Origin: Nitrospirota bacterium
GTDB lineage: Bacteria > Nitrospirota > Thermodesulfovibrionia > Thermodesulfovibrionales > UBA6898
Length of the DNA: 64,000 bases
Reading direction: 5' to 3'
Assembly (NCBI GenBank): GCA_003252075.1
Contig: QKDO01000058.1
Coordinates: forward strand, 6,017-70,016
Shown here: one piece after another, positions 39,712-47,249 of the stretch
How positions within the stretch are numbered: the first letter of the stretch is position 1
How the letters are laid out: the number at the start of each line of letters is the position of its first letter
Program-made: the position numbers and the translations under genes
The notes under the pieces: model-generated
The model's input: the letters and a program-made list of their open reading frames with translations, nothing else
Databases searched by the model: none
Told to the model about the DNA's origin: nothing

Positions 39712-40119
39712 TTATGCCCCGGCCTTTACTTCAATTTTCTGGGTCTTGGCCTTCTCGGCCTTCGGGAGCACGAGTTTCAGAACGCCGTTCTTCACTGTCG
39801 CCTGAATCCGCTCCCGGTCGATCTCATTCGACAGTGTGAACCGGCGGTGATAATCGCCGATGCCGTATTCGTACACAGCGAGCTGCATGTCCTGCGGGAT
39901 ATCCGGATCCACCTTTGCGTAGATCTCGAGGATGTTCTTCTCAAGCGTGATGTCGACCGAGGACTCGTCCACGCCCGGGACATCCGCAATGATCGTGGTC
40001 TGATCCCTACCCTCAATGATGTCCACGGCCGGTTGATACACGCGCCGTTCACGCGTGCGCTCATCCCGTTCCGTTGTTACCGCTTCCTTTTTCCGCGTAT
40101 CCAGATTGTCGTTTGCCAT
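39712..40119 (-). CDS. Hsp20/alpha-crystallin small heat-shock protein (second in operon)
   Basis: YQPAVDIIEGRDQTTIIADVPGVDESSVDITLEKNILEI...GDYHRRFTLSNEID...ATVKNGVLKLVLPK. Confidence 0.9.
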   Translation of the reverse strand: MANDNLDTRKKEAVTTERDERTRERRVYQPAVDIIEGRDQTTIIADVPGVDESSVDITLEKNILEIYAKVDPDIPQDMQLAVYEYGIGDYHRRFTLSNEIDRERIQATVKNGVLKLVLPKAEKAKTQKIEVKAGA

Positions 40120-40136
40120 ATCTTCACCTCCTGTCG

Positions 40137-40574
40137 CTATTCGCTGCTAATGCTGATCTTCCGGGGCTTGTCAGCCTCTGCGCGCTGTACCGAGATCGTC
40201 AGAACACCCTTCTGGTACTTCGCATCCACCCTGCTGCTCTCGACCCTGAAGGGCAGGACTATATTCTTTGAGAACTGGCCGCCCCAGCGTTCGCGGCGGT
40301 GATAGGTCTCGTCCTCCTGCAAATCGCTGCCCTGGCGCTTTCCCTTGATCGTCAGCATCTCGTCAGCCACGGATATGTCGATGTCCTTGGGTTCCATGCC
40401 TGCGACTTCCGTCGTAATGACTGCCTTGTCAGCCGATGCCCAGACATTCACGAGAGGAAAATCATGTACTGACGATCTGCCCATGCGGGACAGGTCCCTG
40501 CTCATCCGCTCGAATTCCCTCCAGGGATCGACGAACCTTCCCAGCCTATCGAAATCCGACCACAACATATGCAC
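40137..40574 (-). CDS. Hsp20/alpha-crystallin small heat-shock protein (first in operon)
   Basis: FPLVNVWASADKAVITTEVAGMEPKDIDISVADEMLTIKG...ERWGGQFSKNIVLPFRVE...AKYQKGVLTISVQ. AGGAGG RBS. Confidence 0.9.
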   Translation of the reverse strand: MHMLWSDFDRLGRFVDPWREFERMSRDLSRMGRSSVHDFPLVNVWASADKAVITTEVAGMEPKDIDISVADEMLTIKGKRQGSDLQEDETYHRRERWGGQFSKNIVLPFRVESSRVDAKYQKGVLTISVQRAEADKPRKISISSE

Positions 40575-40607
40575 ACCTCCTGATATAAATGTTTAAAAAT
40601 TAACCAT

Positions 40608-40634
40608 TTGGCACTCTAACAAGCCGAGTGCTAA
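40608..40634 (-). promoter_or_regulatory. CIRCE (HrcA operator) upstream of the sHSP operon
   Basis: The minus strand reads TTAGCACTC-GGCTTGTTA-GAGTGCCAA. Against the consensus TTAGCACTC-N9-GAGTGCTAA this is one mismatch with exact 9-nt spacing. It lies 34-60 nt upstream of the ATG. A perfect TTGACA (plus-strand 40664-40669) and an AT-rich candidate -10 lie just upstream. Confidence 0.75.
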
Positions 40635-40824
40635 TTATTATTTATCATAAAAAAACAGGGGCTGTCAAGACCTAAAATCGTGTTTATTGGGTATGATGGC
40701 CACGGAAAGAGGTGAGGACGGAAAGGCTGGGCGCAGGATAAACATAGCCTGATGAGACTCATGGACGCAACAGGTCAGGGGTTATTGTCTGAAGAGTCTA
40801 ACCTGAGCATGAAGTCTTCTACCT

Positions 40825-40973
40825 GCGATGAAGAACGATCCCCTATCCAGTAGGCTGTGGGCATTCCGCCGGGAGAGACAATGGATGCAGTTATCACTCG
40901 CGGATATCCCGATGAGGTCTATGAGCAGACAGGCGGGAGCAAAAACGTAACACCGCGCCCTTCCGGGGAATAG
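40825..40973 (+). pseudogene. Decayed copy of the 3' end of the ferredoxin-nitroreductase gene (copy 2)
   Basis: GCGATGAAGAACGATCC... aligns with 38818 onward. The 114 nt from GGCATTCCG to the TAG stop align without gaps to 38856-38969 (about 25 mismatches by hand count). An in-frame TAG replaces the GGG-CAG codons. No 5' part of the gene is present. Confidence 0.65.
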
Positions 40974-41216
40974 CCTCGGGGGCAAAGACATTGCCTTTCA
41001 GCCAGTCTGCTGCGCCTGATACTATACCCTGCCGTGATAATCTCATACATGAATATTTCCGTTTATGACAGGTAAAATCTGCTTTCCCTTCCTTCTGGAC
41101 TCAAGTATGGAGCGGTTCTGCTATAGGAACAAGGTTCCTCTTGGAAATAAAAGCAGGCGCCATTACAGGCGGCAACAGCATGTTTGGCAACTGTTACTAC
41201 AGGATATTGAAAAGTC

Positions 41217-42599
41217 CTAAAACGTAATCGCGAGTTGGGCACCCAATACAACAGCATTCCCCACGGCGCCGCTTCCGCCCGGCTTTATCACGTACTGAAG
41301 GTCCGGAGTGACTGAGAGCCATGGGGTTATTGTGATACGATAGTTGGACTCAATCACTGTCTCTCCCGACCTTTGCGGTATGTATCCGCTGAAACTCCCG
41401 TAAATGGTACCTATCGAGGCAATGTCCTTCCAGCGACTGGGGATCAGTCCCTGGTAACTTAACCCGCCGCCAAAAAAATACGGCATAGTGCTGACACCCG
41501 GTTTAGGCGACAGAGCGACTTCTCCCCAGACAGTCAGGCCTTTCCGGCTTGCAGGGCCTCCGTCCCGGTAAACCATCTGCTGAAACATGGCATACAGATT
41601 GTAGTTGCTGCCTGCGGTGCCTGCGGGTAAGCGCAGACTGGTAAAATCATTGCTGTCGTAAAAGCCGCCGATCGTGTATTCACCCGGCAGCCCGGAGTCC
41701 CCTTGGGCCTGATTGTGCAGATAACTGACCTGCGCTATTGTCAGCAGCCCGGAATTACCCTGCTGGAGCGCAAAATTGGCTCCGCTGTCCTTACCGCTGG
41801 CGGCATTGGGGTTTGTATTAAAAATGCCTGTTACAACCTGAATGGCCGGAACCAAGTCATACATTACCTGGACACCCCACTCCACACCTGGAGGGCTGGG
41901 CGTGAACGTTGCGTCATTGATACCGAGAGAACCGGGGACAGCGTTAATACCCCCATTGATAAAGTTGTTTAAGACAGGCAGCGTCGCAAAGGTGTTGGCA
42001 GGGGCCAAGCGGCCAAGAGCAATGGTAAGCGCACCGTCAAAGAACTGCTGCTGCAGATACATCTGCTGCAGATTGACCTTTTCTCTTCCGGTGAACGCGC
42101 TCTGCACCTCGAACACATCACCGATATACTTGTCCGAAAGATCCTGACCCGATGAGTAACTGCCTCCTATGTTGAAAGAGAGGCCGGGTACACCCAGGAG
42201 CTTATGGATATCCCAGGCCATCAGAGTTTCCACTGTACCGGCATAGGTGATTCCCTGATTTTGGCCGCCGCTCGGATTACCCATGAACTGAGCCGTGTAC
42301 GAGAGTATCCAGGTAATCCCGAGGTTCATCAGTTTGGTCCGATACCCTGCCCAATCTCGGGTCAATGTTTCTTCTATCGCAACAAAGGGCTTTCCCACAC
42401 AACTGAAATGAAGGCCGTGAGGATCAGCGGGGCTAGGACAGCGGAGGGTCCGGTCAGTTACGGCCCCAGGATCTTCAGCAGACCCTGAAGCATCCTGCGA
42501 TTGCGTGGCGTCAACCTGGGCAGATGCCGGCACAGTGCTGCCAAGGGGAAGATCAGACGCCAGGAAAAACAGAGCAGTTACAAGGCAAAGGCAGCCCAT
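41217..42599 (-). CDS. OprB-family (carbohydrate-selective) outer-membrane porin
   Basis: Signal peptide MGCLCLVTALFFLASD. LTRDWAGYRTKLMNLGITW...FMGNPSGGQNQGITYAG...DIHKLLGVPGLSF is typical of OprB. C-terminal aromatic residue (LAITF). A GGAAGG lies 6 nt before the ATG at 42599. Confidence 0.7.
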   Translation of the reverse strand: MGCLCLVTALFFLASDLPLGSTVPASAQVDATQSQDASGSAEDPGAVTDRTLRCPSPADPHGLHFSCVGKPFVAIEETLTRDWAGYRTKLMNLGITWILSYTAQFMGNPSGGQNQGITYAGTVETLMAWDIHKLLGVPGLSFNIGGSYSSGQDLSDKYIGDVFEVQSAFTGREKVNLQQMYLQQQFFDGALTIALGRLAPANTFATLPVLNNFINGGINAVPGSLGINDATFTPSPPGVEWGVQVMYDLVPAIQVVTGIFNTNPNAASGKDSGANFALQQGNSGLLTIAQVSYLHNQAQGDSGLPGEYTIGGFYDSNDFTSLRLPAGTAGSNYNLYAMFQQMVYRDGGPASRKGLTVWGEVALSPKPGVSTMPYFFGGGLSYQGLIPSRWKDIASIGTIYGSFSGYIPQRSGETVIESNYRITITPWLSVTPDLQYVIKPGGSGAVGNAVVLGAQLAITF

Positions 42600-42856
42600 C
42601 CTCATCCTTCCCCCGAAACCTGCCCGAAGCAAAGACTTCCTGTTGCACCACTTTCTTACATTGCAGACTTCTCTACGCATCTGAATCTATCCATGATGTC
42701 GCGGCAGTTATCAGGCACTGGCTGCAAGGGATCTGTTCATGCATTATTTATCGCCAGACTCTTTTTGTCGTTAAAATATCACACCTGGCATCGGAAAAAA
42801 CAGCGGCTGACGTGAAATACTCGCTCGGGCGCAGATGAAAGGATCGAGGGTAATAA

Positions 42857-43081
42857 TTCGGAAATATCTCCGTCGCCAGGATATTGACTTTGAGAGCCTG
42901 CCATCGGGTCCTGGAGATGCAGGATGGCCCCGGGAGGCGGTCCGCGTTAAGGCAACTGACAAACACCGGCATTCCGTCAGAAGAGACAATGCACGCCGTT
43001 ACCGCCTTCGGGTATCCCGGTGAGGTCTATCAGCGGACAGCCGGGAGCAGAAGCGCAACACCACGCTCTTTGGCAGGATAG
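42857..43081 (+). pseudogene. 5'-truncated remnant of a nitroreductase paralogue (copy 3 of the 3' end)
   Basis: Frame translation: ...ENISVARILTLRACHRV...GIPSEETMHAVTAFGYPGEVYQRTAGSRSATPRSLAG*. The last 114 nt align without gaps to 38856-38969 (about 21 mismatches by hand count). Two stop codons (TAATAA) lie immediately upstream. No ferredoxin or N-terminal nitroreductase part is present. Confidence 0.6.
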
Positions 43082-43116
43082 CAACCGGGGACCGAGACTT
43101 CGCCATTGAGTATCCA

Positions 43117-43160
43117 CTGCAACAAGAAAGACCTGATCCTCACGCAGCCTCAGGTGCAGG
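43117..43160 (+). repeat. Direct repeat R, copy 1
   Basis: CTGCAACAAGAAAGACCTGATCCTCACGCAGCCTCAGGTGCAGG. 34 of 44 positions are identical to 43808-43851. The first 20 nt match 19/20. Confidence 0.55.
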
Positions 43161-43354
43161 CCTGCCCGGTTCATCCGGGGATTCGAGAGATACTACAAGA
43201 TCCTTTGGAAAGGCGTTGAGTCTTTTATCTTCGTCAGTAGTTCCTCCGGGTACTTTGACCTGAGAAAGATTAAACAATCAGCGGGAAAAGGCGTAAAATA
43301 TAAGTGTGGCGAACGAAAAATACACCCCGTAGGGATAAGAAGGAGGTTTGCGCC

Positions 43355-43789
43355 ATGAAGAACAGAAGCCTGGTTTTGATTGTTGGACTTATAGTAATCA
43401 CGGCCATCCTCATATCCGGAGCACCTGTCATGGCCGGCGGAGGGCATGGCGGAGGCTGGGGCTGGGGCTATTTCGGTCTCGGGCTTGCCACAGGAGCGCT
43501 TTTGAGCTATCCCTATTACTACCAGCCGTACTATCCGTATTACCCGTATTACCCATACTATTCTTATTATCCCTATGCCTATGCTCCGGCATATCGTACT
43601 TCACCGACGGTGATTTACCGCGAACGGGAACCGGCGTATGCAGAGCCGGATCGGGCGAGATATTCCTCCCGGAATACCTGGTACTACTGCAAAGAGTCCA
43701 ACGCCTACTATCCCTATGTACGGAATTGCCCCGGCGGATGGGAGAAGGTGCCTACGGTGCCGCCATCGGAACCCGGCAGCGACAGGTGA
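43355..43789 (+). CDS. Secreted Tyr/Pro-rich low-complexity protein with a conserved Cys-containing C-terminal motif
   Basis: AGGAGG RBS and signal/TM MKNRSLVLIVGLIVITAILISGAPVMA. Then a GGGHGGGWGWGYFG segment, a (YYP)-type run YPYYYQPYYPYYPYYPYYSYYPYAYAPAY, and WYYCKESNAYYPYVRNCPGGWEKVP. Confidence 0.6.
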   Translation: MKNRSLVLIVGLIVITAILISGAPVMAGGGHGGGWGWGYFGLGLATGALLSYPYYYQPYYPYYPYYPYYSYYPYAYAPAYRTSPTVIYREREPAYAEPDRARYSSRNTWYYCKESNAYYPYVRNCPGGWEKVPTVPPSEPGSDR

Positions 43790-43807
43790 AGATCAGAAAG
43801 CGGGTCA

Positions 43808-43851
43808 CCGCAACAAGAAAGACCTGACGCTCGCGCAGTCTCCTGTCACGG
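43808..43851 (+). repeat. Direct repeat R, copy 2
   Basis: CCGCAACAAGAAAGACCTGACGCTCGCGCAGTCTCCTGTCACGG. It ends 11 nt before the stop of the NERD gene. Confidence 0.55.
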
Positions 43852-43861
43852 TGATACTCCT

Positions 43862-44761
43862 TTATTTGCCCTCTGCCTTTTTTGCATAGGCGACGGGTTC
43901 TACGTCCCGACAGCGCTGCTCTACTTGGTGGGCTATCCTTTGCATAAGAATGTCAGTCACGCAAGCGTTGCCCGTACCTTTGAGCAAAAGGTCCGGATTC
44001 TTACCGTTGTAGATGAGCATATCAGAAGGCTTCTTGCGCTCGATAAACCATCCGGGGAGGGCAAGAACCGGTTTTACCCAAACAGGCTCACCAACAGCAC
44101 TGCTCAACCACTGAGATAGCCATGCTGCCTGGCGTTTCGCCTGGTCTAAGGGTTTCTTCTCTGTCCAGTTCGGAAAGATAAGCGATTCACCATCAAAGAC
44201 AACTGTAGCTTCTGCAGGCCCTCCTCTTTTATCCGGTTTTGCTCTTCCCTTTGTCTCAACAGCAAAGACGCCTTTTGGGCTAATGACGACGTGATCGACA
44301 TTAAACTTTTCTGCAGGAAAGTCATGATAGATCCTGCAGCCTTGCAGCATGAGTTGGTTCAGTTCCTGCCCGACTGCAAGCTCACAGTCAAGACCAAGCC
44401 GGAGAGCGGCTCTTTCTTTTGCTTTTTTCCACATTTTGAAAATAAGGATAATTACAGCGACCAGTGGTGAAAGAGTGTAAAGGATCACAGTGAATGTCGA
44501 GTTTTTTCCCGACACAGCTATGGCAAGATATACTGCATAGAATAATAAAGGCAAAGAGACGGTTGCCAACAGATAAAAGTTGAGATCATCATCGAGAGCT
44601 TCGATACCTTTTCTTAATGTTTCTCCCGGCATTCTCAATAATTGTCGCGTAAGCGGATTTCTGCGTCCCCGTCGAGTCAATCCAAAAAACCAAAATACTC
44701 CGATGATAATCGCGAACGTTCCTAAAAAAATTATATGAGGCGTAAAAAGCAGAAGGTACAT
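43862..44761 (-). CDS. Membrane-anchored NERD (nuclease-related domain) protein
   Basis: Three N-terminal TM helices, then CRIYHDFPAEKFNVDHVVISPKGVFAVETKGRAKPD, which matches the NERD pattern. The start overlaps the HNH gene stop by 1 nt (TAATG). Confidence 0.7.
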   Translation of the reverse strand: MYLLLFTPHIIFLGTFAIIIGVFWFFGLTRRGRRNPLTRQLLRMPGETLRKGIEALDDDLNFYLLATVSLPLLFYAVYLAIAVSGKNSTFTVILYTLSPLVAVIILIFKMWKKAKERAALRLGLDCELAVGQELNQLMLQGCRIYHDFPAEKFNVDHVVISPKGVFAVETKGRAKPDKRGGPAEATVVFDGESLIFPNWTEKKPLDQAKRQAAWLSQWLSSAVGEPVWVKPVLALPGWFIERKKPSDMLIYNGKNPDLLLKGTGNACVTDILMQRIAHQVEQRCRDVEPVAYAKKAEGK

Positions 44762-45138
44762 TATGTCATTGGCTCCTTTTTTAAGTTTCTTTGCCTGTTC
44801 GCAGCTTGACGTCTTGCAACAAGTCTGCGGAAATGCTTCCCGGCATCGGTATTCTTCTTAATCTCCTTTTTTGCAATCAAGCCAAGAAGCAGAAGCTCCC
44901 GAAGCGCCCTGCCCTTGCGATGCCAGCGGAGACGATTGCAGCGGACACAGGCAGGGAGATAGTTCTCGGCTGCATTCTTGCCACCCTTGTCCTTCTGAAT
45001 GACGTGGTCAACTTCCCACGCGCCCTTTTCAGGCTGCCCTTTCTTAATGCCCCGGCGGGCAAAGAATAGGCGGTCGCCACAGAAATGGCAGTGACCGGAA
45101 GTGCGGGAGAAGATGGCTTTAAGTGTGTTGTTCGTCAT
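44761..45138 (-). CDS. HNH endonuclease
   Basis: CHFCGDRL...WEVDHVIQKDKGGKNAAENYLPACVRCNRLRWH is a canonical CxxC...DH...N...CxxCN HNH zinc-finger motif. Basic C-terminal tail. Confidence 0.8.
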   Translation of the reverse strand: MTNNTLKAIFSRTSGHCHFCGDRLFFARRGIKKGQPEKGAWEVDHVIQKDKGGKNAAENYLPACVRCNRLRWHRKGRALRELLLLGLIAKKEIKKNTDAGKHFRRLVARRQAANRQRNLKKEPMT

Positions 45139-45230
45139 TAAGTAAGCAGTAAAAGCAATATAACCCTTATCCTGTCATCCAAAAAGCATTATCTTCTATG
45201 CTCTTCACACAAGTTATCCCAAAAGATCTC

Positions 45231-45383
45231 CTAGGGCATAATCTCTTCATGCTTTGATCGCCAGTGTGCGTCTATACCATCCCACCCATTACCCTGAAAG
45301 ATGTGACCACAGATTGGGCATTGCCGTGGTCTTTCCTTTTGCACTTTCTTCTTACAGCAAAGACATCTAATTTCTTCTTTCAT
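45231..45383 (-). CDS. 50-aa zinc-ribbon protein (not in the ORF track)
   Basis: MKEEIRCLCCKKKVQKERPRQCPICGHIFQGNGWDGIDAHWRSKHEEIMP*. CxxC-x11-CxxC arrangement. Its ATG overlaps the McrC-like stop (ATGA). Confidence 0.45.
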   Translation of the reverse strand: MKEEIRCLCCKKKVQKERPRQCPICGHIFQGNGWDGIDAHWRSKHEEIMP

Positions 45384-46411
45384 ACTCTTTTCTCAGGATG
45401 ACTGCTTAGGTTTTTATAATCCTCCTTAGATTCATAGTTCAGTGCTTCCAATAATCTTGTCATAAATTCTTCACCATTTGCATCAAGATCGTTGTCAAGT
45501 GGGAAGCTGAGGCAGCGAATCGTGCAATCACCGATACGTATAGAATGCGGACCTGCCGGCATTGACGGGTATACGAGAAATGCTGTCAAGCAGCGCTTTG
45601 ACGTAGCGTAAGAGGAAACTTTTGCTATATCATTAGTCGACGGCTTATCTTCCTTCTTATACTTAGTGTCAAGAACGCATAGAGGCGTTTCTTTGCCAAG
45701 ATCATAAAGCACCAAATCAATTCTAAAGAAAATAGACCCGTCATCGCTGATGCGAACATGTTCTTGAGGCTTAAGGAAATATCGCTCCGGCAAATGCACT
45801 TTAAGCCATTCAGCAACAAACAATTCATATAGGCGATCCATATTGACGAGAAATGGTATTGCCGCCCTACTGCCAGCTTCATGAGACGGGCCACTGTGTT
45901 CGAGAAAAAACCTACACAGTGCATGCAAAGGTCTGTAGTCTTCATTCAAGCGATTGTAGAGTCGATTTATACAGATTTGTGCTTTAAATGGCTTCAGAGT
46001 TACCAACTGCTGTAAGTCACGATAAGCACGGCGTACAGTCTGTGTTGTTCTCTCTGAGTAAAAATGAGATCTCAATATATTATGAAGAGTCCAAGCGGGG
46101 ATTTGATTTTCTTCCAAGTCGGCTGTGTGCTCCTCATAATGACAAAGAAAGGCGGGGGCCCACGTCTTCTTTATCTTTTCATTTATATCGAGGCGGCCAG
46201 CGAGGTGATATAACGTATCAGCTTTGGAAACATAATTCCTGTAAAAGCTTTTTCTGCCACGGTCTAAAATTTTTAAACTCAATATCTTTGCAAAACGGTC
46301 GAAAGAACCTGTCGCAAGAGGAGTCCTACATCTTCTTATACCACCAGGCGTCCTGGCCGCCTTCGATAAAAGTAAGGGGATCAGCCTTGCTCCGATCGGT
46401 TCTGTCACCAT
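45380..46411 (-). CDS. McrC-like PD-(D/E)xK nuclease; no McrB partner, probably 5'-truncated or with an unreliable start
   Basis: FYRNYVSKADTLYHLAGRLDI and the nuclease core FFRIDLVLYD...CVLDTKYKK resemble McrC. The first 86 nt (about 28 codons) overlap the 3' end of the upstream GC-rich gene, and there is no internal ATG for about 190 codons. The sequence is visibly AT-richer than the window. Confidence 0.55.
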   Translation of the reverse strand: MVTEPIGARLIPLLLSKAARTPGGIRRCRTPLATGSFDRFAKILSLKILDRGRKSFYRNYVSKADTLYHLAGRLDINEKIKKTWAPAFLCHYEEHTADLEENQIPAWTLHNILRSHFYSERTTQTVRRAYRDLQQLVTLKPFKAQICINRLYNRLNEDYRPLHALCRFFLEHSGPSHEAGSRAAIPFLVNMDRLYELFVAEWLKVHLPERYFLKPQEHVRISDDGSIFFRIDLVLYDLGKETPLCVLDTKYKKEDKPSTNDIAKVSSYATSKRCLTAFLVYPSMPAGPHSIRIGDCTIRCLSFPLDNDLDANGEEFMTRLLEALNYESKEDYKNLSSHPEKRV

Positions 46412-47249
46412 AGGTCAGCTTGCCGCCCTTGACGCTGAATTTCCAAGTACCGTAAAGCTTTCCGCTCAGCGCCAGTTTCAGGGTGTATGACCCGTCAACT
46501 GCAAGCAAGTCCTTTGCCTTGAAATAGGCGCCGCCTGAGGTCTTGACCATGGGGAATATCATGTCGAATTCGAAACGGTTCCACTCCCGGTGGAGGGAGA
46601 TGGTCTGGTTCTCCCGCGACGTGCAGACGAGTTTCTTGTCCTTGTCCCGGGTTATCTCGATGCGGGGAGCGTAATCCACGGTAAGCTTGTCGGCAGAGTC
46701 GTGCCTCAGCCATACCTTGAACGAAAGACTGTTGCCAGGGTCCGCCTTCGGATAGTAGAGGTACGCCCAGCTGCTCCAGTCGCCGTCGATGAGGTACACA
46801 TCGCCTCCTGCGAAAGGATCGGAAGGCGATTTTTTTGCTATGCTGAACAAGAAGGTGTAGAACTTTGCGCCTTCGAGATAAAAATCGAGCACGTACGAAC
46901 CCGGCTCCTTAAACGGGAACATGAGCAGACTCGACTGTCCGCTACTGAGGTCAGTGGCAGTCATGAAATCAAACCTCATGTACGGCAGTTTGATAAGTTC
47001 TGTTTTAAAATCAAACCGGTAGAGCTCGGCGCCGTCGGCTTTTCTGAAGATGACCCACCCCTTTGCTCCTGCGGGCATGAACACCCCTTGCATCTGGTTG
47101 TCCAGGGAGAAGCTGGCGTTGTTGCTCACAAGCCTGACATTGTTGAGCAGGGAAGCGAACATGATACCGGGCGGATATTCGGCCACGGCCGGGAGGGAGA
47201 GCGCCGCAACGAGCAATAGGGCAATCACGAGCAACGTCAACTTTTTCAT
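46326..47249 (-). CDS. Secreted hypothetical protein with an internal duplication
   Basis: Signal peptide MKKLTLLVIALLLVAALSLPAVA. Two similar segments: GSYVLDFYLEGAKFYTFLFSI and GSYTLKLALSGKLYGTWKFSV. Host-like composition. Confidence 0.55.
   Translation of the reverse strand: MKKLTLLVIALLLVAALSLPAVAEYPPGIMFASLLNNVRLVSNNASFSLDNQMQGVFMPAGAKGWVIFRKADGAELYRFDFKTELIKLPYMRFDFMTATDLSSGQSSLLMFPFKEPGSYVLDFYLEGAKFYTFLFSIAKKSPSDPFAGGDVYLIDGDWSSWAYLYYPKADPGNSLSFKVWLRHDSADKLTVDYAPRIEITRDKDKKLVCTSRENQTISLHREWNRFEFDMIFPMVKTSGGAYFKAKDLLAVDGSYTLKLALSGKLYGTWKFSVKGGKLTYGDRTDRSKADPLTFIEGGQDAWWYKKM

What the first reader, a model, noticed from the sequence alone, without database searches (positions are those of the whole stretch)
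43862..45138. Translationally coupled HNH endonuclease + membrane-anchored NERD protein: candidate two-gene defence or abortive-infection module
A 125-aa HNH endonuclease ends in TAATG, overlapping the start of a 299-aa protein. That protein has three TM helices and a cytoplasmic NERD nuclease-related domain.

The pair sits in a compositionally atypical stretch next to other nuclease and toxin remnants. I do not recognise a named defence system with this exact HNH + TM-NERD architecture. A membrane-tethered nuclease-like sensor paired with a small basic HNH effector would suit phage defence.
Basis: partly seen in the sequence, partly recalled or inferred. Interest (0 to 1): 0.7.

Follow-up and report, generated by a model that had tools for sequence, protein, structure and literature searches.

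The report
Coupled HNH and membrane-anchored NERD nucleases
Two overlapping genes for a small HNH nuclease and a membrane-anchored NERD nuclease form a rare two-gene unit that recurs in other genomes; it sits among defence-type genes and is probably an untested anti-phage or anti-plasmid module.

Summary
On the minus strand, a 125-aa HNH gene (44761-45138) ends in TAATG and overlaps by 1 nt the start of a 299-aa gene (43862-44761). That protein has three N-terminal TM helices and a cytoplasmic NERD (PD-(D/E)xK) domain. Catalytic residues are intact in both proteins.

Co-conservation is real but narrow.
- Within the HNH subclade at least about 61% identical to this one, 8 of 10 distinct contexts carry a NERD gene, or its remnant, directly downstream, overlapping where the junction is intact.
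- The partner is either this TM-NERD or an unrelated-looking soluble NERD with a zinc ribbon.
- Outside that subclade, 0 of 79 HNH loci carry a NERD.
- Only 1 of 80 TM-NERD genome loci carries this HNH. About 12-15 of the 80 carry a different, HNH_2-type nuclease next door.

TM-NERD is a large family (578 clusters at 50% identity), and its neighbours are often restriction-modification or other defence-type genes. Neither protein hits PADLOC, and I found no named HNH+NERD system.

Best reading: a rare modular two-nuclease cassette, probably defensive, here in its membrane-tethered form. The "NERD sensor plus HNH effector" split is not supported. Function is untested.

The parts
44761..45138 (-). 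Small stand-alone HNH endonuclease gene (125 aa). It consists of a McrA-type catalytic domain only, plus a basic C-terminal helix.
   Evidence: ORF. Pfam HNH 1.3e-7. Family-invariant residues are C17, C20, C64, C67 and D44, H45, N59, N68, H73. The closest solved structure by sequence is the HNH domain of EcoKMcrA, 6ghc, E=1.7e-5.
44932..45036 (-). HNH (beta-beta-alpha-metal) core, residues 35-69.
   Evidence: Pfam match coordinates. Invariant D44-H45, N59, C64-x-x-C67-N68.
44759..44763 (-). TAATG stop/start overlap. The HNH stop and the NERD start share one base.
   Evidence: Sequence read directly.
44773..44776 (-). GGAG Shine-Dalgarno-like motif, 11 nt upstream of the NERD ATG and inside the 3' end of the HNH gene.
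   Evidence: Sequence read directly. Its function is inferred.
43862..44761 (-). TM-NERD gene (299 aa): three N-terminal TM helices plus a cytoplasmic NERD (PD-(D/E)xK) nuclease domain.
   Evidence: ORF. Pfam NERD 2.9e-16. AlphaFold2 model pLDDT 83.6. 2313 homologues. 578 clusters at 50% identity with E<=1e-30, nearly all about 300 aa.
44672..44761 (-). TM helix 1 (residues 1-30).
   Evidence: Hydropathy. Model helix 7-30.
44579..44671 (-). Cytoplasmic loop 1 (residues 31-61), carrying the family's most conserved N-terminal motif, RRGRRxPLTRQLLRxPGExLR.
   Evidence: R34, P36, L37, L42, R43, P45 and G46 are invariant among the 17 sequences of A1. P36, R43 and G46 remain invariant across the 113 sequences of A5, and L37, L42 and P45 are at least 90% conserved there. 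The loop has 8 K/R. Its role is unknown.
44507..44578 (-). TM helix 2 (residues 62-85).
   Evidence: Hydropathy. Model.
44426..44503 (-). TM helix 3 (residues 87-112). It continues as a long helix into the NERD domain.
   Evidence: Hydropathy. Model helix 89-140.
44054..44395 (-). NERD domain (residues 123-236), including the catalytic E127, D156-H157 and E169-T-K171.
   Evidence: Pfam coordinates. Invariant or near-invariant columns across 113 homologues. The top Foldseek hits are all PD-(D/E)xK nucleases, but none is significant.
45231..45383 (-). 50-aa CxxC...CxxC zinc-ribbon ORF. It overlaps the end of the McrC-like gene by 4 nt (ATGA) and lies 92 nt upstream of the HNH gene. It is part of the same low-GC islet; membership of the module is unproven.
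   Evidence: ORF. Only weak zinc-ribbon hits. Not found next to the pair in other loci.
45380..46411 (-). Orphan McrC-like PD-(D/E)xK nuclease gene (up to 343 aa; the true start may lie further downstream), with no McrB partner. It is a neighbour in the same low-GC islet, not a conserved partner of the pair.
   Evidence: Pfam McrBC 7.1e-30, aligned from model position 75 onward. NCBIfam McrC 4e-20, far below its cut-off. JGI called only a 153-aa product here.
44100..46350 (.). Low-GC islet (0.40-0.47, against 0.54 for the window) covering NERD, HNH, the Zn-ribbon ORF and the McrC-like gene.
   Evidence: Composition profiles. Per-gene GC and GC3.

Best explanation
The two genes form a bicistronic, translationally coupled two-nuclease cassette. 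It belongs to a rare but conserved class: a small McrA-type HNH nuclease of one subclade ('clade A') followed directly by a NERD-family PD-(D/E)xK nuclease. The NERD partner is exchangeable. In most clade A loci it is a soluble NERD with a C-terminal zinc ribbon. Here and in a few relatives it is a 3-TM, inner-membrane-anchored NERD.

The cassette lies in a 2.3-kb low-GC islet next to an orphan McrC-like nuclease. The TM-NERD family as a whole is often flanked by restriction-modification and other defence-type genes. I therefore read the cassette as a candidate anti-phage or anti-plasmid module.

Proposed mechanism (inferred, not shown): both proteins are made from one transcript. TM-NERD holds a Mg-dependent DNA endonuclease at the cytoplasmic face of the inner membrane. 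There it meets DNA entering the cell rather than the nucleoid, as shown for the unrelated membrane nuclease SNIPE. The HNH acts as a co-effector, for example as a second-strand nickase or a backup nuclease.

Shown: gene structure, domains, intact catalytic motifs, topology prediction, recurrence of the pair, and partner swapping. Inferred: co-transcription, any physical interaction, the DNA substrate, and the defence role.
For: (1) Anatomy. 1-nt TAATG overlap with an internal GGAG. Both Pfam domains score above their cut-offs. Catalytic residues are invariant across homologues: NERD E127, D156 and K171, with E169 at least 90% conserved; HNH D44, H45, N59, N68, H73 and four Cys.

(2) Recurrence in HNH clade A. 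Ten distinct contexts were examined.
- This genome, intact pair.
- L002: HNH plus TM-NERD with a 14-nt overlap. The NERD has a frameshift in a T6 run of a MAG that I take to be a long-read assembly.
- L166: the HNH 3' end lies 26 nt upstream of a TM-NERD that is 71% identical.
- L165: a 27-aa HNH stub upstream of an intact TM-NERD that is 73% identical.
- L171: intact HNH (78%) followed by a 39-aa TM-NERD stub.
- L168/L169, L172 and L175 (plus a Logan contig): HNH overlapping a soluble NERD by 4, 1 and 4 nt; the C-terminal zinc ribbon is seen in the complete L168/L169 and L175 copies, while the L172 copy runs off the contig.
- Exceptions: L170 and L173/L174.

(3) Partner swapping. The two NERD partner types share only the NERD core (hhalign, 88 columns, E=3.5e-4). 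HNHs linked to the two types interleave in the HNH tree. The HNH+NERD architecture has therefore survived exchange of the partner.

(4) HNH association of TM-NERD. About 12-15 of 80 TM-NERD genome loci have an adjacent, co-directional HNH_2-type nuclease of a different family. It lies on either side and occurs in at least 3 clades of the NERD tree. Another locus has a 535-aa HNH two genes upstream.

(5) Defence context. Immediate neighbours of TM-NERD include type I, III and IV R-M components, SLFN-like helicase (PADLOC PDC-S41), STAND NTPases, SIR2, a PLD/DUF3427 helicase and DUF4357.

(6) Precedents. NERD nucleases are validated defence effectors: HEC-02 (10.1101/2024.01.29.577857) and ZwsA (10.64898/2026.04.06.716636). 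Membrane tethering of a nuclease as a self/non-self device is shown for SNIPE (PMC13190303).
Against: - Both families mostly occur without each other. Only 1 of 80 TM-NERD genome loci has this HNH. None of 79 more distant HNH loci has any NERD, by tblastn with both NERD types and by Pfam on immediate neighbours.
- Closer TM-NERD relatives lack the HNH: P0002 at 68%, P0004 at 64% and P0009 at 58% identity.
- The stubs in L165 and L171 show that each partner survives loss of the other.
- HNH GC3 (0.60) differs from NERD GC3 (0.45).
- No promoter or terminator consensus supports the operon.
- There is no evidence of physical interaction. No multimer prediction was possible, and the HNH monomer model is poor (pLDDT 57.7).
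- There are no experimental data for either family.
- Clade A is small, roughly 17-20 clusters at 90% identity, so the sample is thin and partly made of short contigs.
Confidence: 0.5

Rival explanations
1. The two are independent neighbours. Two autonomous single-gene nucleases (a minimal McrA-like HNH and a stand-alone TM-NERD) sit side by side in a defence islet. They have been co-inherited for a while but have no functional interplay.
For: - Most members of both families occur alone or with other neighbours.
- Either partner can decay while the other stays intact.
- Codon-position GC differs between the two genes.
- Stand-alone NERD nucleases are described as lying at the edges of other defence systems (PMC10853773).
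Against: - 8 of 10 clade A HNH contexts have a NERD or its stub directly downstream, and the reading frames overlap where the junction is intact.
- The partner comes from two NERD subfamilies that share only the catalytic core. That pattern is hard to get by chance adjacency.
- A 25-nt leader upstream of the HNH is conserved across cassettes.
Confidence: 0.25
2. The HNH is a selfish hitch-hiker. The small HNH is a mobile, free-standing homing-type endonuclease gene that inserts into intergenic spots. It happened to land upstream of NERD genes and spread with them.
For: - In the wider family the HNH lies tightly packed (gaps of 0-40 nt, or overlaps) beside unrelated housekeeping genes: NUDIX, thioesterase, UbiE methyltransferase, alpha/beta hydrolase and O-antigen ligase.
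- It has no conserved neighbour there.
- It is strongly conserved (53-80% identity) and its named relatives span several phyla (Anaerolineales, Omnitrophica, Nitrospira).
Against: - It is absent from phage, plasmid and viral-contig collections.
- No repeats or target-site signatures flank it.
- Within clade A the downstream gene is almost always a NERD, although the two NERD types share no 5' sequence that could serve as a homing target.
Confidence: 0.1
3. The pair is a toxin-antidote or abortive-infection pair. One nuclease is a toxin held in check by the other and released on infection.
For: The architecture is compact, overlapping and two-gene, and it lies near toxin-antitoxin genes in related loci: RelE/ParE-like in L002 and PIN-MazE in L166. 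Aravind-type analyses propose NERD as a suicidal backup effector (PMC12839542, PMC10853773).
Against: - Both partners keep full catalytic sets.
- Each persists intact where the other is only a stub.
- About 80% of TM-NERD genes have no HNH neighbour of any kind. That does not fit an obligate antidote.
Confidence: 0.1
4. The membrane NERD protein is a housekeeping protein, in the manner of S. aureus SmdA (cell division and morphology), and the HNH is incidental.
For: SmdA has a TM helix plus a NERD-like domain and acts in cell division (PMC9040797). One TM-NERD relative lies downstream of lpxB-msbA-kdtA-lpxK genes.
Against: - The distribution is patchy. The pattern scan confirmed 285 relatives among representative genomes of 185,579 species (a lower bound), and the named records span several phyla.
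- The neighbourhoods are variable and rich in defence genes.
- The cassette sits in a low-GC islet.
- Catalytic residues are intact, whereas SmdA lacks several of the most conserved NERD residues.
Confidence: 0.05

Closest known systems
SNIPE (membrane-bound GIY-YIG nuclease that cleaves phage DNA during injection; PMC13190303)
   Same: An inner-membrane anchor with the N-terminus outside and a nuclease domain facing the cytoplasm. It is encoded as a compact defence-type gene. Membrane tethering offers a way to spare the chromosome.
   Different: There is no sequence or fold relationship. SNIPE has one TM helix, DUF4041 and a GIY-YIG domain. This protein has three TM helices, a conserved basic loop and a PD-(D/E)xK NERD domain. 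No Pfam domain other than NERD scored above its cut-off. SNIPE is a single gene, whereas here an HNH gene is coupled upstream. The resemblance is a functional analogy only and is untested.
HEC-02 (ABC ATPase + NERD protein; 10.1101/2024.01.29.577857), Nhi (from my own knowledge: NERD-type nuclease fused to a helicase) and ZwsA (10.64898/2026.04.06.716636)
   Same: A NERD-family PD-(D/E)xK domain with the (D/E)xK signature, used as a defence effector. For HEC-02, a two-gene layout with NERD as one partner.
   Different: The partner here is a 125-aa HNH, not an ABC ATPase. There is no helicase, VHS or S4 domain. The NERD protein is membrane-anchored. PADLOC models give no hit to this protein.
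EcoKMcrA (type IV restriction HNH enzyme, PDB 6ghc)
   Same: The HNH core, with a CxxC...CxxC zinc site and DH...N...H, aligns at E=1.7e-5. JGI annotates relatives as McrA.
   Different: The 125-aa protein has only the catalytic domain. The N-terminal modified-cytosine reader of McrA is absent, so modification dependence cannot be assumed.
SmdA of Staphylococcus aureus (PMC9040797)
   Same: An N-terminal membrane anchor, a cytoplasmic NERD-like domain and a conserved C-terminus.
   Different: SmdA has one TM helix and a degenerate NERD that lacks several conserved residues. It is essential and confined to Staphylococcaceae, and it acts in cell division. This family has three TM helices and intact catalytic residues, and its distribution is patchy and associated with defence-type genes.
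Heterodimeric restriction enzymes with two different catalytic subunits (e.g. R.BspD6I large and small subunits; from my own knowledge)
   Same: Two separate nuclease polypeptides encoded side by side, which could each cut one strand.
   Different: There is no methyltransferase partner, no evidence of a heterodimer and no known recognition site. The small subunit of R.BspD6I appeared only as a weak, non-significant Foldseek hit.

Membership tests
Pfam NERD (PF08378), PD-(D/E)xK superfamily | Profile score above the curated gathering threshold. | tested here: met
   60.4 bits against 22.1, E=2.9e-16, model positions 2-111 of 111.
Pfam NERD (PF08378), PD-(D/E)xK superfamily | Catalytic E...D...(D/E)xK signature. 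| tested here: met
   E127, D156 and K171 are invariant and E169 is at least 90% conserved in 113 homologues. The same IDH...ETK core aligns with the soluble NERD partner.
Pfam NERD (PF08378), PD-(D/E)xK superfamily | Restriction-endonuclease-like alpha/beta fold. | tested here: inconclusive
   The model (pLDDT 83.6) shows the expected run of beta-strands 143-170. The top Foldseek PDB hits are all PD-(D/E)xK nucleases (SfsA, R2 endonuclease, Bax1, Can2, Hjc), but the best E-value is 8.9e-3 and TM-scores are at most 0.27.
HNH endonuclease (PF01844) | Profile score above threshold, plus the DH...N...H/N motif with a zinc-binding Cys pair. | tested here: met
   32.0 bits against 21.4. D44, H45, N59, N68, H73 and C17, C20, C64, C67 are invariant in 22 homologues.
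McrA-type type IV restriction enzyme | An N-terminal modified-DNA reader domain joined to the HNH. | tested here: not met
   The protein is 125 aa. Only the C-terminal HNH part of 6ghc (residues 209-281) aligns.
SNIPE | DUF4041 DNA/tape-measure-binding domain plus GIY-YIG nuclease. | tested here: not met
   Pfam finds only NERD above its cut-off. SNIPE's domains are as described in PMC13190303.
SNIPE | Inner-membrane anchoring with a cytoplasmic nuclease; removal of the TM segment is toxic; injected DNA is cleaved. | not testable with these tools
   Only the predicted topology is available. Confirmation needs PhoA/LacZ fusions, a TM-deletion toxicity test and infection assays.
HEC-02 / Nhi / other named NERD defence systems (PADLOC-DB v2) | A match to the system's protein models, plus the partner ATPase or helicase. 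| tested here: not met
   There are no PADLOC hits for TM-NERD (window and L022) or for the soluble NERD partner. No ATPase or helicase gene lies in the cassette.
Two-gene operon (co-conserved functional pair) | Adjacency and orientation conserved across diverged genomes. | tested here: met
   Met only within HNH clade A. 8 of 10 contexts carry a NERD or its stub directly downstream on the same strand, with overlaps of 1-14 nt at the intact junctions (L166 has a 26-nt gap). Not met across the families at large.
Type II toxin-antitoxin pair | The toxin cannot persist without its cognate antidote. | tested here: not met
   L165 has an intact TM-NERD with only a 27-aa HNH stub. L171 has an intact HNH with only a 39-aa NERD stub. 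Most TM-NERD genes have no HNH neighbour.
McrBC system (for the neighbouring McrC-like gene) | A McrB GTPase partner next to McrC. | tested here: not met
   No McrB-like ORF lies near 45380-46411. The upstream ORF (46326-47249), which begins with an apparent hydrophobic signal sequence, has no Pfam hit. The NCBIfam McrC score of 72 is far below its cut-off of 338.

The most novel reading that the evidence does not exclude
The 3-TM NERD proteins are a second, evolutionarily independent class of membrane-tethered 'entry nucleases', working like SNIPE. They would cut phage or plasmid DNA as it crosses the inner membrane. They would also recruit interchangeable HNH partners (the small McrA-type HNH here, HNH_2-type proteins in Geobacter and Desulfuromonas relatives) to form a two-active-site cutter. 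The conserved basic loop between TM1 and TM2 would act as the gate or sensor.
Probability: 0.15. Interest if true: 0.75.

Novelty: new variant of a known kind. Interest (0 to 1): 0.45.

Why it matters
If the cassette defends the cell, it would add an unnamed two-nuclease module (HNH + NERD) to the defence repertoire. It would also show that its NERD partner can be swapped between a soluble and a membrane-anchored form.

The larger point is the TM-NERD family itself. It comprises 578 clusters at 50% identity and is missing from PADLOC. Membrane tethering of a nuclease has only recently been shown, for SNIPE, to give self/non-self discrimination without sequence or modification recognition. An unrelated and much larger family with the same layout would make it directly testable whether that principle is general.

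If the pair turns out to be two independent nucleases, the finding is ordinary defence-island content.

Tried and rejected
- A PDB sequence search with the TM-NERD profile gave only spurious hits to engineered proteins and a beta-lactamase.
- Foldseek on the TM-NERD model gave no significant match, probably because the long TM helices dominate the model.
- The AlphaFold2 model of the HNH was too poor to search with (pLDDT 57.7).
- Promoter and terminator consensus scans found nothing useful around the cassette. There are no tRNA genes in the window.
- The TM-NERD has no phage hits and only 4 weak partial plasmid hits. The HNH has no hits in plasmids, phages or IMG/VR contigs.
- My first co-occurrence test used only the TM-NERD as tblastn query and suggested 'no co-conservation'. 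It missed the soluble NERD partner. I corrected this after the look-up of P0125 and re-tested with the second NERD type.
- I considered matching contig lengths between the hit tables to find further pairs. Short contigs would match by chance (several coincidences expected), so I accept only the 89,581-bp Logan contig shared by P0132 and P0245 as a probable extra pair.
- I considered the idea that the wider HNH family pairs generally with PD-(D/E)xK nucleases. A few neighbours fit (NucS_C, Mrr_cat, MjaI, BsobI, DUF4268), but of the ten tightly linked neighbours sampled, most of those with a recognisable domain are housekeeping genes. I dropped it.
- A literature search on the PADLOC 'mad2'/MADS hits among neighbours led nowhere. 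Those hits probably reflect methyltransferase cross-matches.
- A fused-chain or multimer structure prediction of HNH + NERD was not attempted.
Full report
**1. What is in the sequence**

On the minus strand, a 125-aa ORF (44761-45138) and a 299-aa ORF (43862-44761) meet at ...GGAGCCAATGACATAATGTACC... The HNH stop TAA and the NERD start ATG share one base. A GGAG lies 11 nt upstream of that ATG.

Pfam assigns HNH (PF01844, 32.0 bits against a cut-off of 21.4) to the first ORF. It assigns NERD (PF08378, 60.4 bits against 22.1, residues 123-236) to the second.

The 299-aa protein has three hydrophobic segments, at residues 1-30, 62-85 and 87-112. The first loop is K/R-rich (8 K/R), as is the stretch after TM3 (5 K/R). 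This places the N-terminus outside and the NERD domain in the cytoplasm. An AlphaFold2 model built from 113 homologues (mean pLDDT 83.6) shows the same helices, followed by a beta-rich domain.

The pair lies in a low-GC stretch: 0.40-0.47 between about 44.1 and 46.35 kb, against 0.54 for the window. Upstream on the same strand are a 50-aa zinc-ribbon ORF and an orphan McrC-like nuclease gene with no McrB partner. I did not find the 'toxin remnants'.

**2. The two families**

TM-NERD is not an oddity.
- A word-indexed search finds 2313 homologues.
- An exhaustive HMMER scan of 1.84 billion representatives finds 578 clusters at 50% identity with E<=1e-30. Nearly all are about 300 aa and align end to end.
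- Across 113 members, E127, D156, H157, T170 and K171 are invariant and E169 is at least 90% conserved. This is the PD-(D/E)xK set.
- A loop motif between TM1 and TM2 (RRGRRxPLTRQLLRxPGExLR) is the best-conserved N-terminal feature.
- Foldseek against the PDB returns only PD-(D/E)xK nucleases at the top (SfsA, R2 endonuclease, Bax1, Can2, Hjc). None is significant.

The HNH belongs to a family of about 120-aa stand-alone proteins (437 hits). C17, C20, C64, C67, D44, H45, N59, N68 and H73 are invariant. Its closest solved relative is the catalytic domain of EcoKMcrA (6ghc, E=1.7e-5), without McrA's reader domain.

Both proteins therefore look catalytically competent.

PADLOC-DB v2 has no model that hits TM-NERD, and gives only weak generic HNH hits for the small protein.

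**3. Are the genes co-conserved?**

- Of 80 representative-genome loci encoding TM-NERD, only L002 (a Nitrospira MAG that, like the window, has a small heat-shock gene just beyond the NERD gene) also encodes this HNH.
- Of 80 metagenome loci encoding the HNH, none has a TM-NERD, and no neighbour is conserved at all.

Look-ups of the closest relatives changed the picture. The look-up of L168/L169 showed that my tblastn test had missed a second NERD type. Within the HNH subclade at least about 61% identical to the window's ('clade A'), I examined ten distinct contexts.

| Context | Finding |
|---|---|
| Window genome | Intact pair |
| L002 | HNH + TM-NERD, 14-nt overlap; NERD frameshifted in a T6 run (I take this MAG to be a long-read assembly, so possibly an error) |
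| L166 | 3' end of the HNH 26 nt upstream of a TM-NERD 71% identical |
| L165 | 27-aa HNH stub upstream of an intact TM-NERD (73%), just downstream of the 3' end of a type I methylase (HsdM) gene |
| L171 | Intact HNH (78%) followed by a 39-aa TM-NERD stub |
| L168/L169 | HNH overlapping, by 4 nt, a different 303-aa soluble NERD with a C-terminal zinc ribbon |
| L172 | HNH overlapping the same type of soluble NERD by 1 nt (gene cut by the contig end) |
| L175 (plus a Logan contig) | HNH overlapping a 300-aa soluble NERD with a zinc ribbon by 4 nt |
| L170 | HNH with an altered 3' end, no NERD |
| L173/L174 | DUF4268 (PADLOC PDC-S11) - HNH - 76-aa TM protein |

So 8 of 10 contexts carry a NERD gene or its remnant directly downstream. 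A further probable pair is P0132/P0245, which lie on the same 89,581-bp contig.

Re-testing all HNH loci with the soluble NERD as query, and by Pfam on immediate neighbours, confirmed that the 79 more distant HNH loci have no NERD.

**4. Partner swapping and a wider HNH theme**

The soluble and membrane NERD partners share only the catalytic core (hhalign, 88 columns, E=3.5e-4; BLASTP finds nothing). In a neighbour-joining tree of the HNHs, those linked to TM-NERD and those linked to the soluble NERD interleave. That tree is weakly resolved because the protein is short. A 25-nt leader upstream of the HNH start is shared by L168, L172, L175 and L002. Keeping an HNH-then-NERD layout while the NERD is exchanged argues for a functional link.

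Independently, about 12-15 of the 80 TM-NERD loci have a co-directional HNH_2-type protein next door (324 aa, or a 264-aa relative). It lies either upstream or downstream, at 40-94% identity, and in at least three clades of the NERD tree. Locus L163 has a 535-aa HNH two genes upstream. TM-NERD thus keeps company with HNH nucleases of three families.

Even so, about 80% of TM-NERD genes have no HNH neighbour. Closer TM-NERD relatives of the window protein lack one as well:
- P0002 (68%), with a SLFN-like helicase upstream;
- P0009 (58%), downstream of lpx genes and a patatin gene.

**5. Context**

Immediate neighbours of TM-NERD in 80 genomes include:
- type I methylases (HsdM) and type I restriction subunits;
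- type III and type IV restriction components;
- SLFN-like helicases (PADLOC PDC-S41);
- STAND NTPases, SIR2, PLD/DUF3427 helicases and DUF4357.

The upstream neighbour is on the same strand in 58 of 71 loci. The family is patchy across the phyla named in the records, among them Nitrospirota, deltaproteobacterial lineages (Geobacter, Desulfuromonas, Desulfobulbaceae), Beta- and Gammaproteobacteria, Planctomycetota and a Candidatus Falkowbacteria MAG. It is absent from the phage collection and nearly absent from the plasmid collection. This is the profile of an accessory gene that keeps defence-type company.

By contrast, the wider HNH family lies tightly beside unrelated housekeeping genes. 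That keeps alive a selfish-element reading of the HNH.

**6. How it most likely works**

Shown:
- two intact nuclease genes with coupled reading frames;
- a predicted membrane anchor with a cytoplasmic active site;
- recurrence of the pair, and partner exchange.

Inferred:
- one transcript yields both proteins;
- TM-NERD acts as a DNA endonuclease held at the inner membrane, where it would meet incoming DNA rather than the nucleoid;
- the HNH is a co-effector, either a second-strand nickase or a backup nuclease.

The analogy is SNIPE, a single-pass membrane GIY-YIG nuclease. It cleaves phage DNA during injection, and removing its TM segment makes it toxic (PMC13190303). NERD nucleases are validated effectors in HEC-02 and ZwsA. 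Stand-alone NERD genes have been described at the borders of Dnd and BREX loci as possible backup effectors.

I give about 0.5 to 'functionally linked, defence-type two-nuclease cassette' and much less to the specific entry-nuclease mechanism. The stubs in L165 and L171 argue against a toxin-antidote relationship and show that each gene can stand alone.

**7. Comparison with known systems and novelty**

- It is not SNIPE: there is no DUF4041 or GIY-YIG domain.
- It is not HEC-02 or Nhi: there is no ATPase or helicase, and no PADLOC hit.
- It is not McrA: there is no reader domain.
- It is not SmdA-like. SmdA has one TM helix and a degenerate NERD, and it is an essential cell-division factor restricted to Staphylococcaceae.
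- No named HNH+NERD system turned up in PADLOC v2 or in full-text searches. Newer catalogues could not be checked.

I classify it as a new variant of a known kind. The domains and logic are familiar. The combination is unnamed, and the membrane-tethered NERD family is uncharacterised.

**8. Verdict**

The unit is conserved only in a small HNH subclade, and the 'sensor plus effector' roles are not supported. Interest is moderate (0.45). The lead most worth following is the large TM-NERD family as a possible SNIPE-like class of nucleases, rather than this particular pair.

Noticed in passing
window 38836-43842: The last 134 nt of the ferredoxin-nitroreductase gene (38004-38969, +) recur as degenerate direct copies at 40840-40973 (77%) and 42948-43081 (70%), about 2 kb apart. 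They bracket the three small heat-shock genes and the OprB porin gene. A further 37-nt repeat (43115-43151 and 43806-43842, 86%) brackets the Tyr/Pro-rich ORF and ends 20 nt from the NERD stop codon. This looks like serial cassette accretion at one site. No integrase or tRNA lies nearby.
   Followed up: partly
window 45231-46411 (minus strand): An orphan McrC-like PD-(D/E)xK gene has no McrB partner. Its stop overlaps (ATGA) the start of a 50-aa CxxC...CxxC zinc-ribbon ORF. The 5' end of its long ORF overlaps by 86 nt the preceding 307-aa ORF, which begins with an apparent signal sequence, so the true start may be internal. JGI called only 153 aa here.
   Followed up: partly
L009, L012, L022, L023, L029, L044, L055 (upstream); L024, L031, L042, L058 (downstream): TM-NERD genes in Geobacter, Geomonas, Desulfuromonas and some proteobacterial genomes sit next to a co-directional 324-aa protein. 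It has a C-terminal HNH_2 domain and an unassigned 200-aa N-terminal domain containing an 'APHKPFLLLAVMDL' motif, at 40-94% identity. It hits PADLOC model PDLC04132 'HNH'. This may be a second, more common HNH+TM-NERD module.
   Followed up: partly
L084-L162 (HNH loci from metagenomes): Outside clade A, the small HNH gene is wedged with gaps of 0-40 nt, or with overlaps, beside unrelated genes (NUDIX, thioesterase, UbiE methyltransferase, alpha/beta hydrolase, O-antigen ligase, IS1595 transposase). It has no conserved neighbour, yet it stays 53-68% identical to the window's HNH in these loci, which come from many different metagenomes. This behaviour resembles a small mobile or selfish gene.
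   Followed up: partly
L173 1684-3266 / L174 (same as L083): A three-gene string: a DUF4268 protein (PADLOC candidate PDC-S11, E=1.6e-126), then a clade A-like HNH (68%), then a 76-aa membrane protein, with gaps of 6 and 2 nt. It lies next to a RelB/YafQ toxin-antitoxin pair. The HNH may also partner with PDC-S11.
   Followed up: no
L002 5987-6100: The TM-NERD reading frame shifts in a T6 homopolymer between TM1 and the conserved loop. The contig naming suggests a long-read assembly. This is either a sequencing error or a recent pseudogene.
   Followed up: partly
L168 157-181, L172 315-338, L175 3976-4000, L002 5595-5619: A leader of about 25 nt, A(A)AGGGGACAGGCTACTTTnnTAAATG, directly upstream of the HNH start is conserved between cassettes that have different NERD partners. 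The window copy is related but carries an 8-nt insertion.
   Followed up: no
window 43304-43789 (+): A 161-aa ORF with a signal-like N-terminus, a Gly-rich stretch and YPYYPYYPYY repeats. It has no Pfam hit.
   Followed up: no
window 43862-45138: The two coupled genes differ in third-position GC: HNH 0.60 against NERD 0.45. This hints at different histories, in line with partner exchange.
   Followed up: no
protein database (cluster of the window's NERD protein): The window's own TM-NERD is in the collection, but its 90% cluster is represented by a 71-aa fragment. It therefore did not appear as a 100% hit in the homologue search. This is a tool artefact worth knowing about.
   Followed up: yes
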